Both the position numbers and the translations under genes were made by a program. DNA of 38,208 nucleotides, taken from sequence record NC_003298.1; one strand, 5' to 3'. Of the stretch, positions 1-38,208 are shown piece by piece (position 1 is the stretch's first letter; each line of letters begins with the position of its first letter). The stretch is from Enterobacteria phage T3. Below the pieces are notes generated by a model. That model made no database searches. It saw nothing but the letters and a program-made list of their open reading frames with translations, and was not told where the DNA came from.

Positions 1-231
1 TCTCATAGTTCAAGAACCCAAAGTACCCCCCCCATAGCCCCTCTTAAAGCCACCCAAAGCTGGCCCTACCCCTAGGGTTTAACCTTCGGTTAACCTTGGG
101 TCTTTCCTCAAGTGGCCTATAGGATAGCCTAAAGTGATGCCTAAAGTCAATACCTAAAGTGATGGCTGCCTATTGGAGACTTAAAGAGTGTCCTAGTGTA
201 CCAGTATGATAGTACATCTCTATGTGTCCCT
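1..231. repeat. Left direct terminal repeat (231 bp), identical to 37978-38208
   Basis: Bases 1-231 are repeated exactly at the right end; contains a C8 run (24-31) and tandem CCTAAAGT-type short repeats (130-165). Confidence 0.95.
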
Positions 232-9586: not shown

Positions 9587-10044
9587 TGGCTGGCGCATAC
9601 GCTGCGAGGTGTACGCAAGGTCGGGCTTTCCGCTCCGGCCTAGAAGATAAAGTCTCAAAGCAGCTTGAGAGTAAGGGCATTAAGTTCGACTATGAACTTT
9701 GGCGAATCCCTTACGTCATCCCTGAGAGTGACCACTTATACACTCCAGACTTCCTGCTACCTAACGGTATCTTCATTGAGACCAAAGGGCTGTGGGATTC
9801 CGATGACCGCAAGAAACACCTTTTGATTCGTGAGCAACACCCTGAACTGGACATTCGCTTGGTCTTCTCAAGCAGCCGCTCAAAGCTCTACAAGGGTAGC
9901 CCAACAAGCTACGGTGAGTGGTGCGAGAAGCATGGCATTCTGTTTGCTGACAAGCTGATACCAGTGGCTGGCGTCAAAGAACCCAAGAAGGAGGTTCCGT
10001 TCGATAAATTTAAGACTAAGAAAGGAGTAAAGAAAAATGGCTAA
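9586..10044 (+). CDS. 3: Endonuclease I (Holliday junction resolvase)
   Basis: 152-aa ORF at the gene 3 position; TAATG overlap with gene 2.5. Confidence 0.88.
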   Translation: MAGAYAARCTQGRAFRSGLEDKVSKQLESKGIKFDYELWRIPYVIPESDHLYTPDFLLPNGIFIETKGLWDSDDRKKHLLIREQHPELDIRLVFSSSRSKLYKGSPTSYGEWCEKHGILFADKLIPVAGVKEPKKEVPFDKFKTKKGVKKNG

Positions 10045-17761: not shown

Positions 17762-18082
17762 ATGGGATTCTTCAAGAAAATCAAGAAAGCTGTTAAGAAA
17801 GTAGTTAAGGAAGTTGGTAAACCGATCGAGAAGGCTGGTAAGGAAGTCGGTAAAGCCGTTGGTGGGGCGCTGGGTGCTGGTAAGCAGGAGATTATCCAAC
17901 AAGAGGCTCCGGCACCAGTAGTAGCTGCACCACCACCAGCACAGGTTGTAGATGTACCTGAACAGGATAAGGCTGAGGGTGAGGATGAGGCGCAAACCGA
18001 GAGCGCACGTAAGAAGGCCCGCGCTGGTGGTAAGAAGGCACTTAGCGTAGCTCGCAGTTCCGGCGGTGGAATCAATATCTGA
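17762..18082 (+). CDS. 7.3: gp7.3 (lysine-rich tail/host-range protein)
   Basis: 106 aa; C-terminal ...EDEAQTESARKKARAGGKKALSVARSSGGGINI matches T7 gp7.3 from memory. Confidence 0.8.
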   Translation: MGFFKKIKKAVKKVVKEVGKPIEKAGKEVGKAVGGALGAGKQEIIQQEAPAPVVAAPPPAQVVDVPEQDKAEGEDEAQTESARKKARAGGKKALSVARSSGGGINI

Positions 18083-19801: not shown

Positions 19802-20734
19802 ATGGCTGAATCTAATGCAGACGTTTATGCGTCCTTCGGTGTGAACAACGCGGTAATGACCGGAAGCACACCTACTGAACACGAACAGAATATGCTGAGT
19901 CTCGACGTTGCTGCCCGTGATGGCGATGATGCAATCGTGCTTAGCGATGAACCGACTTCCCATAACGATGACCCCTATGCGGCAGGTGTAGACCCGTTCG
20001 CTGATGGTGAAGATGATGAGGGCCGCATTCAGGTTCGTATCAGTGAAGATGGCAATGAAGCCGGGTTCGACACTGATGGCGATAACTCTGAGGTGGAGAC
20101 CGAAGGTGAGGACGTTGAGTTTGAACCGCTGGGTGACACCCCAGAAGAACTAAGCCAAGTGACTGAGCAATTAGGTCAGCACGAAGAAGGCTTTCAGGCG
20201 ATGGTCGAGCAGGCAGTTGAGCGTGGACTGAGCGCAGACTCTGTGAGTCGAATCTACGAAGAGTATGAAGCCGATGGCATCTCCGAGAAATCCTATGCTG
20301 AACTAGAAGCTGCTGGCTATAGTCGTGCCTTTGTGGACTCATACATCTCAGGTCAGGAAGCTCTGGTAGACCAGTACGTCAATCAGGTAGTTGCCTTTGC
20401 TGGTGGTCAGGAGCGCTTTAGTGCAATCCATACTCACCTCGAAGCGACAAACCCTGCTGCTGCTGAGTCCCTTGAGTCTGCCATGATGAACCGAGACTTG
20501 GCGACCGTCAAAGCGATTATCAATCTGGCTGGTGAGAGCTACACGAAGAAATTCGGTAAGCCTGCCAACCGTAGTGTTACCAAGCGTGCTACTCCGGTTA
20601 AACCCGTAGCTCGTCAGAAAGAGGGCTTTACGAATCAGGCTGAGATGATTAAAGCTATGAGCGACCCGCGCTATCGTAGCGATTCTGCCTACCGCCAAAT
20701 GGTAGAACAGAAGGTTATCGACTCTAGTTTCTAA
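19802..20734 (+). CDS. 9: Capsid assembly (scaffolding) protein
   Basis: 310 aa, strongly acidic N-terminal half. Confidence 0.9.
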   Translation: MAESNADVYASFGVNNAVMTGSTPTEHEQNMLSLDVAARDGDDAIVLSDEPTSHNDDPYAAGVDPFADGEDDEGRIQVRISEDGNEAGFDTDGDNSEVETEGEDVEFEPLGDTPEELSQVTEQLGQHEEGFQAMVEQAVERGLSADSVSRIYEEYEADGISEKSYAELEAAGYSRAFVDSYISGQEALVDQYVNQVVAFAGGQERFSAIHTHLEATNPAAAESLESAMMNRDLATVKAIINLAGESYTKKFGKPANRSVTKRATPVKPVARQKEGFTNQAEMIKAMSDPRYRSDSAYRQMVEQKVIDSSF

Positions 20735-20755
20735 TTAACCCTCACTAAAGGGAGA
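20733..20755 (+). promoter_or_regulatory. T3-type promoter, class III (phi10), exact consensus
   Basis: AATTAACCCTCACTAAAGGGAGA 23/23. Confidence 0.95.
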
Positions 20756-20890
20756 GACCATAGATGCCTACAATGGTTGAATCACCTGAGCACAGAACTT
20801 TGTGGTCACTCCCATAGGTGAAACATTGAGAACCAACTCGATTCAAGTAGTAACCAAACTTTTCTTTAAATTAACATAAGGAGATTCAAC

Positions 20891-23030: not shown

Positions 23031-25436
23031 ATGGCTCTCATTAGTCAATCAATCAAGAACCTCAAGGGTGGTATCAGTCAACAACCAGATATTCTCAGGT
23101 TCACTGAACAGGGTAGCGTACAGATTAATGGCTGGTCTTCTGAGTCAGAGGGTATCCAGAAGCGCCCACCGATGATTCACCTTAAGACCCTTGGCACTGC
23201 TGGGTATGTGGGTGCGCAACCTTACGTTCACCTCATCAACCGGGATGAGTTCGAGCAGTATTTCGTTGTGTTCACTGGTGAAGATATTAAGGTATTCGAC
23301 CTCGATGGTAAGGAGTACCAAGTCCGTGGAGACCGCTCATATGTTCGTACAGCAAACCCACGGGAAGACCTTCGGATGGTAACGGTGGCTGATTATACCT
23401 TTGTGACTAACCGCAAGGTGGTTGTGCAGAGTAACGACCAATCTGTCAACCTTCCGGGATTTAAAGACCAAGGCGATGCGCTAATTAACGTTCGAGGTGG
23501 ACAATATGGGCGTAGACTCTCAATCGAGTTCAACGGGGCTGAGCGTGCTGCTGTGCAACTACCAGACGGTTCACAACCAGCACACGTCAATGAGGTTGAC
23601 GGTCAGGCCATCGCTGAGAAGCTGGCGGCTCAGTTGCGGAATAACCTAGGGAACCCCAACAATGACCAAGACCCAAATAAGTGGCGGTTCAATGTTGGCC
23701 CCGGATTCATCCATATCCTTGCGCCAAATAACGATAACGTTTGGGGACTACAGACTAAGGATGGTTACGCAGACCAGCTAATCAACCCTGTAACCCATTA
23801 CACTCAGTCGTTCCAGAAGCTGCCTATTAACGCGCCAGATGGGTACATTGTGAAGATTGTAGGTGACACCTCCAAGACTGCCGACCAGTATTACGTTAGG
23901 TTCGACCTCAACCGTAAGGTGTGGGTAGAAACAATCGGCTGGAACACAAGGACTCACCTGCACTACCACACGATGCCTTGGGCGCTGGTACGCGCTTCTG
24001 ACGGGAACTTTGACTTCAAGTACCTTGAGTGGGGTGCTCGTACTGTTGGCGATGATACAACTAACCCATACCCTTCCTTTACCGGACAGACAATCAACGA
24101 TATTTTCTTCTTTCGTAACCGTTTAGGATTCCTTAGCGGGGAGAACATCATCTTGTCTCGCACCTCGAAATACTTCAACTTCTTCCCGGCCTCCGTGTCA
24201 AACTACTCCGACGATGACCCAATCGACGTTGCGGTTAGCCATGACCGGGTGTCAACCTTGAAGTATGCCGTTCCGTTCTCCGAAGAGTTGCTCCTGTGGT
24301 CTGACCAAGCGCAGTTCGTTCTGACAGCCTCTGATATCCTTTCGAGTCGCTCCGTAGGGTTGAACCTTACGACTCAGTTCGACGTGCAGGACAGGGCACG
24401 CCCACATGGTGTAGGGCGGAATGTATACTTTTCGTCACCTCGCGCTTCCTTCACATCCATTAACCGATACTATGCGGTACAGGATGTAAGCTCTGTGAAG
24501 AACGCAGAGGACATGACGGCTCACGTTCCGAACTACATACCGAATGGGGTATTTAGTATCTCAGGAACAACTGCTGAGAACTTCGTGGCTATCCTTACGA
24601 GCGGTGCGCCGAACCGAGTGTATATCTACAAGTTCCTCTACATTGACGAGGAAATCAGGCAGCAGTCGTGGTCTCATTGGGACTTTGGGGACAACGTTAC
24701 GGTGTTCGCAGCACAGGTCATAAACTCAACAATGACAGTATTGATGAGCAATGAACATGCTGTGTGGATGGGGCGCTTACACTTCACGAAGGACTCCATA
24801 GACCTTCCGGGAGAACCTTATAGGTTGTATATCGACGCTAAGAGAAAGTACACCATCCCTGCTGGGACGTACAACGATGATACCTACCAGACGTCAATAA
24901 GCCTCTCAACGATTTACGGGATGAACTTCACGAAGGGTAGGGTTTCGGTGGTCTTTCCTGATGGGAAGATTGTAGAGATAGACCAGCCAATCAACGGGTG
25001 GAGTAGCGACCCAATGCTGAGACTTGATGGGAACCAAGAGGGACAAGTAGTCTACATTGGGTTCAACATCCCATTCACGTATACGTTCTCGAAGTTCCTC
25101 ATCAAGAAGACCGCTGAGGACGGCTCGACGGCTACTGAGGATATCGGTCGCTTACAGCTTCGGCGTGCATGGGTAAACTATGAGGACTCTGGAGCGTTCA
25201 TCATCCGTGTGAACAACCTGTCCCGTGAGTTCATCTACACAATGGCGGGTGCACGATTGGGGTCTGACAACCTCCGTGTTGGAGGCTCAAACATTGGTAC
25301 AGGGCAGTACCGCTTCCCGGTGGTAGGCAATGCTCAGACTAACACAGTAACCATCGAGTCAGATGCGTCAACCCCATTGAACATCATTGGGTGCGGATGG
25401 GAGGGTAACTACCTGAGACGTTCTTCTGGTATTTAA
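23031..25436 (+). CDS. 12: Tail tubular protein B
   Basis: 801-aa ORF with TAAGGAGG SD. Confidence 0.93.
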   Translation: MALISQSIKNLKGGISQQPDILRFTEQGSVQINGWSSESEGIQKRPPMIHLKTLGTAGYVGAQPYVHLINRDEFEQYFVVFTGEDIKVFDLDGKEYQVRGDRSYVRTANPREDLRMVTVADYTFVTNRKVVVQSNDQSVNLPGFKDQGDALINVRGGQYGRRLSIEFNGAERAAVQLPDGSQPAHVNEVDGQAIAEKLAAQLRNNLGNPNNDQDPNKWRFNVGPGFIHILAPNNDNVWGLQTKDGYADQLINPVTHYTQSFQKLPINAPDGYIVKIVGDTSKTADQYYVRFDLNRKVWVETIGWNTRTHLHYHTMPWALVRASDGNFDFKYLEWGARTVGDDTTNPYPSFTGQTINDIFFFRNRLGFLSGENIILSRTSKYFNFFPASVSNYSDDDPIDVAVSHDRVSTLKYAVPFSEELLLWSDQAQFVLTASDILSSRSVGLNLTTQFDVQDRARPHGVGRNVYFSSPRASFTSINRYYAVQDVSSVKNAEDMTAHVPNYIPNGVFSISGTTAENFVAILTSGAPNRVYIYKFLYIDEEIRQQSWSHWDFGDNVTVFAAQVINSTMTVLMSNEHAVWMGRLHFTKDSIDLPGEPYRLYIDAKRKYTIPAGTYNDDTYQTSISLSTIYGMNFTKGRVSVVFPDGKIVEIDQPINGWSSDPMLRLDGNQEGQVVYIGFNIPFTYTFSKFLIKKTAEDGSTATEDIGRLQLRRAWVNYEDSGAFIIRVNNLSREFIYTMAGARLGSDNLRVGGSNIGTGQYRFPVVGNAQTNTVTIESDASTPLNIIGCGWEGNYLRRSSGI

Positions 25437-25456
25437 CTCAAAGTCTCCCTGCGGTG

Positions 25457-25479
25457 AATTAACCCTCACTAAAGGGAGA
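25457..25479 (+). promoter_or_regulatory. T3-type promoter, class III (phi13), exact consensus
   Basis: AATTAACCCTCACTAAAGGGAGA 23/23. Confidence 0.95.
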
Positions 25480-25495
25480 CACTAATAGATACGAA

Positions 25496-25510
25496 GGGGG
25501 GGGGGGGGGG
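25496..25510 (+). repeat. G15 homopolymer tract in the gene 13 leader
   Basis: 15 consecutive G at 25496-25510, 22 nt downstream of the phi13 +1 and 10 nt upstream of the gene 13 ATG. Confidence 0.9.
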
Positions 25511-25520
25511 TTAAAGCATT

Positions 25521-25931
25521 ATGTATATTACAAAGTGTTTACAAAGCCACGCTGACAGCTTTAAGCCGTCCATAGAGGACATTCTGGAAGCTGAGGCATT
25601 GGGTGTCGAACCTAAAGTAATTCCTGATGAGAACACTGTGGCGATGCTAAGCGATAGCGCTGTGCTGTCCATTGGTGGAAATCAGGGAGACCGAGTATGG
25701 TTCCTTACCTCTAAGTACGTCCCGCTGTTTACCTTGAAGGAGCGCTTAGAGTTTCGTAGACTTATCATTGAATATCGTGATATGATGCTGAGCCAGTACG
25801 AGTCCATTTGGAATTTCGTTTGGGTAGGCAATAAGTCACACATTCGTTTCCTAAAGACCATAGGTGCGGTATTCCATAATGAGTTTACCGCTGATGGTCA
25901 ATTTCAATTATTTACTATCAGTAGGAGGTAA
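25521..25931 (+). CDS. 13: Internal virion protein gp13
   Basis: 136-aa ORF at the gene 13 position. Confidence 0.85.
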   Translation: MYITKCLQSHADSFKPSIEDILEAEALGVEPKVIPDENTVAMLSDSAVLSIGGNQGDRVWFLTSKYVPLFTLKERLEFRRLIIEYRDMMLSQYESIWNFVWVGNKSHIRFLKTIGAVFHNEFTADGQFQLFTISRR

Positions 25932-37977: not shown

Positions 37978-38208
37978 TCTCATAGTTCAAGAACCCAAAG
38001 TACCCCCCCCATAGCCCCTCTTAAAGCCACCCAAAGCTGGCCCTACCCCTAGGGTTTAACCTTCGGTTAACCTTGGGTCTTTCCTCAAGTGGCCTATAGG
38101 ATAGCCTAAAGTGATGCCTAAAGTCAATACCTAAAGTGATGGCTGCCTATTGGAGACTTAAAGAGTGTCCTAGTGTACCAGTATGATAGTACATCTCTAT
38201 GTGTCCCT
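37978..38208. repeat. Right direct terminal repeat (231 bp), identical to 1-231
   Basis: Exact copy of 1-231. Confidence 0.95.

What the first reader, a model, noticed from the sequence alone, without database searches (positions are those of the whole stretch)
25496..25510. Fifteen-G homopolymer between the phi13 promoter and the gene 13 start codon
A G15 run is far outside what the composition of this genome predicts and sits in a transcribed leader 10 nt upstream of the gene 13 ATG, where a Shine-Dalgarno would normally be. It could act as a purine-rich ribosome-binding surrogate, as a G-quadruplex-forming element in DNA or RNA, or as a slippage-prone tract giving length heterogeneity and variable gp13 expression. 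It could also be a sequencing or assembly artefact at a homopolymer.
Basis: seen in the sequence. Interest (0 to 1): 0.55.

Follow-up and report, generated by a model that had tools for sequence, protein, structure and literature searches.

The report
Expanded poly-G ribosome-binding site, T3 gene 13
The 15-G run is real: it is the ordinary GAGGGG ribosome-binding site of phage T3 gene 13 grown by replication slippage into an unstable tract whose length differs between near-identical T3 stocks, a polymorphism already in the literature and with no demonstrated function.

Summary
Observation confirmed. G15 lies at 25496-25510, 10 nt upstream of the gene 13 ATG and at +23..+37 of the transcript from a perfect-consensus T3 promoter (phi13). 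About 2e-5 to 6e-5 such runs are expected by chance, and the next longest G run in the window is G5. The window is phage T3 (AJ318471). In 76 related Teetrevirus sequences the same position reads ACGA-G(n)-TTAAAGCATTATG: n=4 in 76%, with a tail of G3, G5-G10 and G16. The tract is therefore the G4 of the gene 13 Shine-Dalgarno (GAGGGG), expanded. Five T3-lineage sequences differing from the window by about 1 substitution or fewer per kb (10-25 per 38 kb for the three complete genomes) carry A+G15, G16, G10, G9 and G8. Apart from one 6-bp deletion, it is the only indel separating the complete T3-lineage genomes from one another. Expansions arose at least five times independently. No other homopolymer in these genomes behaves this way. 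A gross sequencing or cloning artefact is excluded; the exact count (15 or 16) and the A at 25495 remain uncertain. Lin (2016) already tabulated this indel as simple-sequence-repeat variation. A three-tetrad RNA G-quadruplex becomes possible at exactly n>=15 in ViennaRNA's model, but this is unconserved and untested. Any regulatory role is unproven. Low-to-moderate interest.

The parts
25443..25480 (+). R13 RNase III-type hairpin. It overlaps the phi13 promoter and is present only in read-through transcripts from upstream.
   Evidence: 8-bp GUCUCCCU/AGGGAGAC stem plus 5-bp upper stem, -21.4 kcal/mol, z=-6.2. Annotated as 'RNase III recognition site R13' in T7M and phiSG-JL2. Stem pair probabilities stay at about 1.0 for tract lengths 4, 9 and 16.
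25457..25479 (+). T3 RNA polymerase promoter phi13 (class III type). The inferred +1 is G25474.
   Evidence: zero mismatches to AATTAACCCTCACTAAAGGGAGA; 10 promoter-like sites in the window against 0 in shuffles. Annotated as promoter phi13 in T7M and phiSG-JL2. The +1 position follows from the established T3/T7 promoter convention (-17..+6) and is an inference.
25493..25495 (+). 5' part of the gene 13 Shine-Dalgarno (GA in all relatives; GAA in the window). The A at 25495 is unique to this record.
   Evidence: all other sequences read ACGAG...; KC960671 has G at this position, giving G16.
25496..25510 (+). G15 homopolymer: the expanded G-run of the gene 13 Shine-Dalgarno (ancestral GAGGGG). 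It is a hypervariable mononucleotide repeat at +23..+37 of the phi13 transcript.
   Evidence: presence, rarity. (G3-G16 at the same site in 76 sequences, 76% G4). (apart from one 6-bp deletion, the only indel separating the complete T3-lineage genomes from one another). (outlier among 143 homopolymer runs). (independent expansions). (anti-SD pairing retained; G4 thresholds).
25511..25520 (+). 10-nt spacer TTAAAGCATT between the 3' edge of the G run and the start codon. Its length is invariant in all relatives.
   Evidence: TTAAAGCA(T/G)T-ATG in every sequence read. All length change is confined to the G run; ESh7 additionally has TG after G5.
25521..25931 (+). Gene 13 (136 aa; internal virion / probable scaffold protein gp13), the gene whose translation start the tract precedes.
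   Evidence: ORF. (PF11090 Phage_T7_Gp13, 152.5 bits, E=4.1e-45). Annotated gp13 / internal virion protein A in relatives.
23031..25436 (+). Gene 12 (tail tubular protein B), the upstream neighbour. Its pyrimidine-rich 3' end (about 25419-25427, CGTTCTTCT) is predicted to pair with the SD/G run in read-through RNA.
   Evidence: ORF; annotation; predicted pairing that extends the R13 lower stem; prediction only.

Best explanation
The G15 run is the G-run of the gene 13 Shine-Dalgarno sequence (ancestral GAGGGG, 10 nt upstream of the ATG) lengthened by slipped-strand mispairing during phage DNA replication. Because the site is non-coding, and because growth adds G's while the 3' edge stays 10 nt from the ATG, an anti-SD-complementary GGGG(G) always remains at the original distance. 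The expansion is therefore tolerated. Once the run exceeds about 6-8 G it mutates much faster than the rest of the genome, so separately propagated T3 stocks have drifted to 8, 9, 10 and 15/16 G. The first steps (G4 to G5-G7) may even be mildly favoured, because they strengthen predicted SD:anti-SD pairing. Further growth is most likely near-neutral drift. Shown here: the run's identity with the SD, its length polymorphism, its recurrence, its uniqueness among homopolymers, and its independence from the window's own record. Inferred: slippage as the mechanism, tolerance or near-neutrality, and heterogeneity within a stock.
For: (1) The orthologous site reads ACGA-G(n)-TTAAAGCATTATG in all relatives. 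Of 76 sequences, n=4 in 58, with G3 x2, G5 x6, G6 x2, G7, G8 x2, G9, G10 x2, G15 and G16. (2) Whole-genome alignment: KC960671, T7M and T3_AGU differ from the window by 18, 10 and 25 substitutions. All three share the same corrections of window-specific indels, so they are independent of this record. Apart from a 6-bp deletion in T3_AGU (and its omitted right terminal repeat), the only indel that differs among them is this tract. A metagenome contig 99.85% identical over 10.8 kb has G10. (3) Control: of 143 homopolymer runs >=4 (20 non-coding) compared across 11 whole genomes and 7 partial loci, this one has 6 distinct lengths. The next most variable is the terminal-repeat C run. Four other non-coding G4 runs never expand. 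(4) Local NJ tree of +/-600-nt flanks with the tract removed: CT02 (G8), Keithsmous (G10), KLB4 (G7) and Keithstache (G6) each have a G4 phage among their closest neighbours, which with the T3 clade gives at least 5 independent expansions. (5) Predicted anti-SD duplex energy is -8.7 kcal/mol at n=4, -12.1 at n=5, and about -13.2 to -13.7 at n>=7. KLB4's depositors annotate GGGGGG within the run as the RBS. (6) Lin 2016 (PMC4956903) independently lists 'Insertion of AGGGGGG between phi13 and gene 13' (T7M to T3) and G9 versus G4 (T7M versus phiYeO3-12 / phiSG-JL2) as SSR indels.
Against: There are no read-level data, so heterogeneity within a stock is inferred from differences between stocks and was not observed. 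Homopolymer miscalls by some sequencing platforms could account for +/-1-2 in individual records. Four other non-coding G4 runs never expand. A purely mutational explanation therefore needs this site to be unusually permissive or unusually slippage-prone, and selection on gp13 expression is an alternative that I cannot exclude. The relatives in the control set were partly chosen because they carry expansions, which is an ascertainment bias. Forty-eight of the 76 lengths are inferred from BLAST match length rather than read directly. Spot checks confirmed three (mtp15 G5, K19PH14C4P1 G6, phage 6998 G3) and corrected one (ESh7 is G5+TG, not G7).
Confidence: 0.75

Rival explanations
1. Selected expression rheostat (contingency-like locus). 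The tract is kept hypermutable because length changes tune gp13 translation, through SD register and strength or through an RNA G-quadruplex that sequesters the SD at n>=11-15. This would give each phage population a spread of gp13 levels.
For: The site varies far more than any other homopolymer and more than four other non-coding G4 runs. Expansions recur in at least 5 lineages, including fresh sewage isolates. Predicted SD pairing changes with n, and ViennaRNA's G4 model gives sharp thresholds: none at n<=10, 2-tetrad at 11-14 (MFE -17.7 to about -32), 3-tetrad at n>=15 (about -50). 5'UTR RNA G4s do alter translation of T7-driven mRNAs in E. coli systems (PMC11087576).
Against: 76% of 76 relatives keep G4, and only about 13% have n>=6, so a long hypermutable tract is not a conserved feature of the genus. 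T7 has GGGAGGG and no homopolymer. No phenotype is linked to length. No ON/OFF logic is evident, because the 3' edge and spacer are invariant. In the published G4 enhancement the G4 lay 43 nt upstream of the RBS, not within it, so even the sign of the effect here is unknown.
Confidence: 0.15
2. Sequencing, assembly or cloning artefact: for example a homopolymer miscall, or a dG:dC tail from old cloning carried into the record.
For: The window record carries demonstrable errors elsewhere. Three later T3-lineage genomes agree against it at 26, 9603, 9622 and 38003 (also Lin 2016 Table 1). The window uniquely has A at 25495, and G15 where KC960671 has G16, so the exact count is unreliable by about 1.
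Against: KC960671 is an independent determination, since it shares non-window alleles with T7M and T3_AGU, and it has G16 at the same site. G6-G10 occur at exactly this position in T7M, T3_AGU, a metagenome contig and four unrelated sewage isolates sequenced by different groups. The tract is in register with a native G4. A cloning tail would not be flanked on both sides by the native sequence without any duplication or loss.
Confidence: 0.04
3. Transcription/R-loop element. A G-run in the non-template strand 23 nt downstream of a strong single-subunit-RNAP promoter forms a stable rG:dC hybrid (with or without G4). This would attenuate or boost phi13 transcription, or provide a replication primer, by analogy with mitochondrial CSB II.
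For: Geometry: perfect-consensus phi13, G run on the non-template strand at +23..+37, followed by an AT-rich stretch. G-rich non-template inserts near a T7 promoter cut T7 RNAP yield more than 10-fold via R-loops (PMC5499740), while G4 motifs in the non-template strand raised T7 transcription by about 30% (PMC7341879, PMC11087576). Every T7 origin contains a T7 RNAP promoter (PMC8373140).
Against: The feature is not conserved (G4 in 76% of relatives). The blocking inserts tested were 32 nt long and 9 bp from +1, not 15 nt at +23. The literature gives opposite signs of effect. PMC8373140 names phiOR and phi6.5, not phi13, as secondary origins. The CSB II analogy and any phi13-origin link rest on my recollection and were not tested here.
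Confidence: 0.04

Closest known systems
Simple-sequence-repeat indels in T7M/T3/phiYeO3-12/phiSG-JL2 (Lin 2016, Data Brief, PMC4956903; companion Mutat Res 2016, not held)
   Same: This is the same locus. Table 1 lists 'Insertion of AGGGGGG between phi13 and gene 13' for T7M to T3, and Table 4 lists T7M G9 versus G4 in phiYeO3-12 and phiSG-JL2 as SSR unit indels.
   Different: That work compared four genomes and classified the change. It did not identify the run as the gene 13 Shine-Dalgarno in the text held here, did not survey the genus, and assigned no function. The present survey extends it to 76 sequences (G3-G16), at least 5 independent expansions, and five T3-lineage states.
Canonical T7-group gene 13 ribosome-binding site (T7: GGGAGGG-7 nt-ATG; Teetrevirus consensus: GAGGGG-10 nt-ATG)
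   Same: Same gene, same position relative to phi13/R13 and the start codon, and purine-rich complementarity to the 16S 3' end.
   Different: The run in T3 is 15-16 G instead of 4. Many pairing registers become possible, most of them more than 10 nt from the AUG, and the run can in principle self-associate into a G4.
Bacterial contingency loci / phase-variable poly-G tracts (Neisseria, Haemophilus, Campylobacter), and poly-G tracts in Campylobacter phage genes (general knowledge; examples among the hits)
   Same: A hypermutable mononucleotide G tract whose length changes by slippage much faster than point mutation. It sits at an expression-control position.
   Different: Those tracts usually lie in coding sequence or in promoter spacers, where +/-1 nt gives ON/OFF switching, and they are maintained by selection. 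Here the tract lies in the SD, the 3' edge and spacer stay fixed so no obvious switch exists, most relatives lack a long tract, and no phenotype is known.
Engineered or natural RNA G-quadruplexes in bacterial 5'UTRs (Lee et al. 2024, PMC11087576; RBS-masking G4s in E. coli reporters, from my own knowledge)
   Same: G15 equals G3-N1-G3-N1-G3-N1-G3, the minimal three-tetrad motif, in the 5'UTR of a phage-RNAP transcript.
   Different: Formation is untested. The published enhancement had the G4 43 nt upstream of the RBS, whereas here the G4 would consume the RBS itself. The motif is not conserved.
G-rich non-template-strand transcription blockage / R-loop elements for T7 RNAP (Belotserkovskii 2017, PMC5499740) and mitochondrial CSB II (recollection)
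   Same: A G-run on the non-template strand shortly downstream of a single-subunit RNAP promoter.
   Different: The T3 run is shorter (15 versus 32 nt) and farther from +1 (+23 versus +10). No evidence of blockage, termination or priming in T3.

Membership tests
Shine-Dalgarno / ribosome-binding site of gene 13 | Purine-rich stretch complementary to the 3' end of 16S rRNA | tested here: met
   RNAduplex versus GAUCACCUCCUUA: -8.7 kcal/mol (n=4), -12.1 (n=5), about -13.2 to -13.7 (n>=7).
Shine-Dalgarno / ribosome-binding site of gene 13 | Located about 5-13 nt upstream of the start codon of a real gene | tested here: met
   The 3' edge of the run is 10 nt from ATG 25521. The ORF is PF11090 Gp13, E=4e-45. 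No other SD-like motif lies in the 10-nt spacer.
Shine-Dalgarno / ribosome-binding site of gene 13 | Conserved at the orthologous position in relatives | tested here: met
   GAGGGG in 58 of 76 sequences, GAG(3-16) in all. The RBS is annotated inside the run in KLB4.
Hypermutable mononucleotide repeat (slippage-prone SSR) | Uninterrupted homopolymer of about 8 or more units | tested here: met
   G15 in the window; G8-G16 in the T3 lineage.
Hypermutable mononucleotide repeat (slippage-prone SSR) | Length differs among otherwise near-identical genomes, in whole repeat units only | tested here: met
   Five T3-lineage sequences with 10-25 substitutions per 38 kb carry 15, 16, 10, 9 and 8 G. Their flanks show 0-1 differences per 1.2 kb.
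Hypermutable mononucleotide repeat (slippage-prone SSR) | Recurrent independent length changes on a phylogeny | tested here: met
   At least 5 independent expansions and 1 contraction (G3) on the local tree.
Hypermutable mononucleotide repeat (slippage-prone SSR) | Length heterogeneity within a clonal population | not testable with these tools
   No read data are available. This needs deep amplicon or long-read sequencing.
Contingency locus / phase-variable expression switch | Tract-length change toggles or grades expression of the adjacent gene | tested here: inconclusive
   Only predictions are available: SD pairing and G4 thresholds change with n, while the spacer is invariant. No expression data.
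Contingency locus / phase-variable expression switch | A long hypermutable tract is maintained across the lineage by selection | tested here: not met
   76% of relatives have G4 and only about 13% have n>=6. T7 has no homopolymer.
Contingency locus / phase-variable expression switch | Reversible phenotypic variants under selection | not testable with these tools
   Requires experiments.
G-quadruplex-forming sequence (RNA or non-template DNA) | Four G-tracts of 2-3 or more G separated by loops of at least 1 nt | tested here: met
   G15 is G3-G-G3-G-G3-G-G3. ViennaRNA gquad predicts a 3-tetrad G4 at n>=15, a 2-tetrad G4 at 11-14, and none at n<=10.
G-quadruplex-forming sequence (RNA or non-template DNA) | The structure actually forms and affects function | not testable with these tools
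   Needs CD, NMM or ThT assays, rG4-seq, and reporter assays.
G-quadruplex-forming sequence (RNA or non-template DNA) | Motif conserved among relatives | tested here: not met
   Only the window and KC960671 reach n>=11. All 74 others are at n<=10.
T3-type class III promoter (phi13) | Match to the 23-bp T3 RNAP promoter consensus, upstream of a late gene | tested here: met
   Zero mismatches at 25457-25479; 10 sites in the window versus 0 in shuffles. Annotated as phi13 in T7M and phiSG-JL2.
Sequencing/cloning artefact | Absent from independent determinations of the same or sister genomes | tested here: not met
   G16 in the independent T3 record KC960671; G8-G10 in T7M, T3_AGU and a metagenome contig. 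The exact count (+/-1) and A25495 remain doubtful.
Curated RNA family (Rfam) | Covariance-model match | tested here: not met
   No Rfam 15 match at E<=1 in 25300-25700.

The most novel reading that the evidence does not exclude
The gene 13 Shine-Dalgarno G-run is a genuine phage contingency locus. Slippage would continuously generate sub-populations with different gp13 output, graded by SD register below about G10 and switched down by an SD-sequestering RNA G-quadruplex or R-loop at G11-G15 and above. The T3 laboratory lineage would then have been selected into the long-tract regime. This would be a mutational expression rheostat located within a ribosome-binding site of a virulent phage.
Probability: 0.12. 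Interest if true: 0.6.

Novelty: already known. Interest (0 to 1): 0.27.

Why it matters
The practical points are modest. (1) T3 is a workhorse for synthetic-phage engineering, and a 15-16-G tract in front of an essential virion-assembly gene is a site where synthesis, PCR, assembly and sequencing will disagree. Users should expect stock-to-stock differences here and should not read them as meaningful mutations. (2) The tract is a ready-made, fast-evolving marker for telling T3-lineage stocks apart. (3) It is a clean natural example of a homopolymer ratchet: G4, then G5-7 (possibly favoured through better SD pairing), then runaway instability, all inside a ribosome-binding site. If tract length were shown to tune gp13, it would be a rare case of contingency-type regulation in a virulent phage. 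Nothing here shows that.

Tried and rejected
1. dG:dC-tail cloning artefact or homopolymer miscall as the origin of the whole tract: rejected by the independent KC960671 sequence and by intermediate lengths in many phages.
2. The tract disrupting the R13 RNase III hairpin by competing for the CUCCC strand: rejected, since stem pair probabilities stay at about 1.0 for n=4, 9 and 16.
3. A known structured RNA in the leader: no Rfam hit.
4. IMG/VR and metagenome scans with the upstream flank gave only 4 and 3 loci. They were useful, yielding one G10 T3-like contig, but too few for a population survey. The survey therefore relied on GenBank phage records.
5. Inferring tract length from BLAST match length alone proved imperfect: ESh7 was inferred as G7 but is actually G5+TG. 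I verified several further lengths directly and flag the rest as inferred.
6. Literature on function: Pajunen 2002 (JMB) and Lin 2016 (Mutat Res) are not held. Lin 2012 PLoS One does not mention gene 13. Two searches failed on a term-length rule.
7. phi13 as a documented secondary replication origin: the one paper checked names phiOR and phi6.5 only, so this lead stays unverified.
8. Predicting the direction of any transcriptional or translational effect from published T7 RNAP / G4 work: the papers disagree in sign and use different geometries, so no direction is claimed.

Full report
1. THE OBSERVATION

The window reads ...AATTAACCCTCACTAAAGGGAGACACTAATAGATACGAA-G15-TTAAAGCATT-ATG... The G run occupies exactly 25496-25510, and the ATG of a 136-aa ORF is at 25521. 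It is the longest homopolymer in the 38,208-bp window. The next longest G run is G5, and the only other runs above 6 are the C8 in each terminal repeat. With 26.5% G, the expected number of G>=15 runs is about 6e-5 (iid) or 2e-5 (first-order Markov).

2. CONTEXT

- The window is bacteriophage T3. Its closest database records are T3 and T7M at >=99% identity. Lin (2016) gives 38,208 bp for GenBank AJ318471 and describes exactly the differences I find.
- AATTAACCCTCACTAAAGGGAGA at 25457-25479 is a zero-mismatch T3 RNA polymerase promoter. It is one of only two perfect copies among 10 promoter-like sites, against 0 in shuffles.
- The T7M and phiSG-JL2 records annotate this promoter as phi13. They also annotate an overlapping RNase III site, R13.
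- By the standard -17..+6 convention, +1 is G25474. The tract is then +23..+37 and the AUG is +48 (inference).
- The ORF 25521-25931 is Pfam Phage_T7_Gp13 (E=4e-45). Gene 12 ends at 25436.

3. WHAT THE TRACT IS

I aligned the leader from related Teetrevirus genomes. Every one reads ACGA-G(n)-TTAAAGCA(T/G)T-ATG.

- phiSG-JL2, KPP-5, phiYe-F10, Sekstaphage-1, Citrobacter SH1, mtp1, mtp8, mtp14, 536_P3 and others have n=4, that is GAGGGG, a normal Shine-Dalgarno.
- The depositors of phage KLB4 (n=7) annotate GGGGGG inside the run as the gene 13 RBS.
- T7 has GGGAGGG 7 nt before its ATG and no homopolymer.

The G15 is therefore not a surrogate for a missing Shine-Dalgarno. It is the Shine-Dalgarno's own G-run, expanded. 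Length change is confined to the G run (ESh7 additionally has a TG after G5), and the 10-nt spacer to the ATG keeps its length.

4. LENGTH POLYMORPHISM

Combining sequences read directly (28) with lengths inferred from full-coverage BLAST match lengths (48) gives 76 sequences:

| Length | G3 | G4 | G5 | G6 | G7 | G8 | G9 | G10 | G15 | G16 |
|---|---|---|---|---|---|---|---|---|---|---|
| Sequences | 2 | 58 (76%) | 6 | 2 | 1 | 2 | 1 | 2 | 1 (window) | 1 |

One inferred value was wrong when checked: ESh7 is G5+TG, not G7. Three others were confirmed by direct reading. The inferred values should be taken as approximate.

5. THE T3 LINEAGE

- A whole-genome MAFFT alignment shows KC960671 (T3), JX421753 (T7M) and LC730324 (T3_AGU) differing from the window by only 18, 10 and 25 substitutions.
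- All three agree against the window at four indels: C8 to C7 at 26 and 38003, +GC at 9603, and +G at 9622. They are therefore independent of this record, and the window carries some old sequencing errors. The same differences appear in Lin's Table 1.
- Apart from a 6-bp deletion in T3_AGU (and its omitted right terminal repeat), the only indel that distinguishes these genomes from one another is the tract: G16, G9 and G8.
- A 37.7-kb metagenome contig (ERZ807347 NODE-49) is 99.85% identical to the window over the 10.8 kb held. Its single gap is the tract, at G10.
- That makes five near-identical genomes with five tract states. Their flanks differ by 0-1 bases per 1.2 kb.
- The locus has therefore changed at least three or four times while the per-site substitution count is about 1e-3.

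This rules out a gross artefact. The window's unique A at 25495 (GAA+G15 versus GA+G16 in KC960671) leaves the exact count uncertain by one.

6. IS THE SITE SPECIAL?

- For all 143 homopolymer runs >=4 in the window (20 non-coding), I measured the orthologous run in 11 whole genomes and 7 partial loci. The gene 13 run shows 6 distinct lengths (4-16).
- The next most variable is the terminal-repeat C run (5-8). Four other non-coding G4 runs (17751, 22269, 22384, 37457) never expand.
- Scanning the 11 whole genomes without reference to the window, the only homopolymers >=7 are the terminal-repeat C7, this G run, and one T7 at the T-phi terminator of ESh7.
- The control set was partly chosen for carrying expansions, so the comparison is qualitative.

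7. INDEPENDENCE OF EXPANSIONS

I built an NJ tree from +/-600 nt of flank with the tract removed. The T3 clade (8-16), CT02 (G8; nearest neighbour mtp14, G4), Keithsmous (G10; nearest mtp1, G4), KLB4 (G7) and Keithstache (G6; nearest 536_P3, G4) fall in different places. Several G5 and two G3 are scattered elsewhere. At least five independent expansions and one contraction are needed. Several of the expanded phages are fresh sewage isolates, so expansion is not only a laboratory phenomenon.

8. MECHANISM

The most economical reading is slipped-strand mispairing at a non-coding G run. The initial G4 sits where extra G's are harmless, because an anti-SD-complementary GGGG(G) always remains 10 nt from the AUG.

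- Predicted SD:anti-SD duplex energy improves from -8.7 kcal/mol (n=4) to -12.1 (n=5) and then plateaus at about -13.2 to -13.7 (n>=7). The first steps could be mildly favoured, and later ones neutral.
- Slippage rates rise steeply with run length (established knowledge). A run past about 6-8 G therefore becomes a ratchet that drifts quickly, which fits the T3 lineage.
- I rate this explanation at 0.75. Slippage, tolerance and within-stock heterogeneity are inferred, not shown.

9. POSSIBLE CONSEQUENCES (PREDICTED ONLY)

- ViennaRNA with G-quadruplex energies predicts no G4 at n<=10. It predicts a two-tetrad G4 at n=11-14 (leader MFE -17.7 to about -32 kcal/mol) and a three-tetrad G4 from n=15 (about -50).
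- The window's G15 is exactly the minimal G3-N-G3-N-G3-N-G3 motif. Such a G4 would consume the SD. All 74 sequences outside the window and KC960671 are at or below G10, the largest length with no G4 potential. That is suggestive but anecdotal.
- The R13 hairpin (25443-25480; -21.4 kcal/mol, z=-6.2) is unaffected by tract length.
- In read-through RNA the SD/G run is predicted to pair weakly with the pyrimidine-rich end of gene 12, extending R13's lower stem.
- The published experiments disagree on direction. G-rich non-template inserts close to a T7 promoter cut T7 RNAP yield more than 10-fold via R-loops (PMC5499740; 32-nt insert, 9 bp from +1).
- In contrast, G4 motifs in the non-template strand raised T7 transcription by about 30%. 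A 5'UTR RNA G4 placed 43 nt upstream of the RBS raised translation about 5-fold (PMC7341879, PMC11087576).
- The geometries differ from T3's, so I make no claim about the sign of any effect.

10. RIVALS

- Selected expression rheostat / contingency locus (0.15). It is consistent with the site's exceptional variability. Against it: 76% of relatives keep G4, T7 has no homopolymer, and no switch logic is evident.
- Whole-tract artefact (0.04). Refuted by independent sequences; only the +/-1 count is in doubt.
- R-loop, terminator or primer element analogous to mitochondrial CSB II (0.04). The geometry is suggestive, but the feature is unconserved. The one paper checked names phiOR and phi6.5, not phi13, as T7 secondary origins. 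The analogy rests on my recollection.

11. NOVELTY

The tract is part of the published T3 genome. Its polymorphism is explicitly tabulated by Lin (2016): 'Insertion of AGGGGGG between phi13 and gene 13' for T7M to T3, and G9 versus G4 for T7M versus phiYeO3-12 and phiSG-JL2. Added here:

- identification of the run as the expanded gene 13 Shine-Dalgarno;
- a 76-sequence survey (G3-G16);
- at least five independent expansions;
- five states within the T3 lineage;
- the homopolymer control;
- the G4 length thresholds.

No function is demonstrated. I classify it as already known, with low-to-moderate interest (0.27). The most novel reading not excluded is a true contingency-type rheostat in a phage RBS, with probability about 0.12.

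Noticed in passing
window 26-33 and 38003-38010: The C8 run in each terminal repeat is C7 in KC960671, T7M and T3_AGU, and C5-C6 in more distant relatives. It is the second most length-variable homopolymer in the genus. The window's extra C may be a sequencing error or a real slippage variant.
   Followed up: partly
window 9603-9622 (gene 3, endonuclease I): Three later T3-lineage genomes all have +GC at 9603 and +G at 9622 relative to the window. This is a compensating frameshift pair that changes a few residues (Lin 2016 Table 1: GVRKVG versus CTQGR). It is most likely an error in the AJ318471 record.
   Followed up: partly
window 25495: The window has A here (GAA+G15), where all 27 other directly read sequences have G (GA+Gn). 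It is either a miscall at the edge of the homopolymer or a private substitution interrupting a G16/G17 tract.
   Followed up: partly
window 17980-17985 (gene 7.3): T3_AGU (LC730324) has an in-frame 6-bp deletion (TGAGGA) relative to the window, KC960671 and T7M. That record also omits the right terminal repeat (231 bp).
   Followed up: no
L030 (ESh7, ON528720) 19921-20800: ESh7 has G5 followed by TG (GAGGGGGTGTTAAAG), possibly an interrupted G7 tract or an error in an 'UNVERIFIED' record. It also carries an extra endonuclease VII-like ORF inserted between genes 13 and 14.
   Followed up: no
window 25419-25427 with 25493-25510: In read-through transcripts the pyrimidine-rich 3' end of gene 12 (CGUUCUUCU) is predicted to pair, largely through G-U wobbles, with the SD/G run, extending the lower stem of the R13 RNase III site. 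Longer G runs lengthen this predicted duplex. This could couple RNase III processing to SD accessibility.
   Followed up: partly
L028 (Keithsmous, OR896854) 24153-25439: The region where the major capsid gene should lie on the + strand is annotated as three minus-strand 'hypothetical protein' CDSs. This looks like an annotation error in that record.
   Followed up: no
window 20733-20755 and 25457-25479: Only phi10 and phi13 match the 23-bp T3 promoter consensus perfectly. The other eight promoter-like sites have 1-3 mismatches, so the hypervariable tract follows one of the two best-matching (presumably strongest) late promoters.
   Followed up: no
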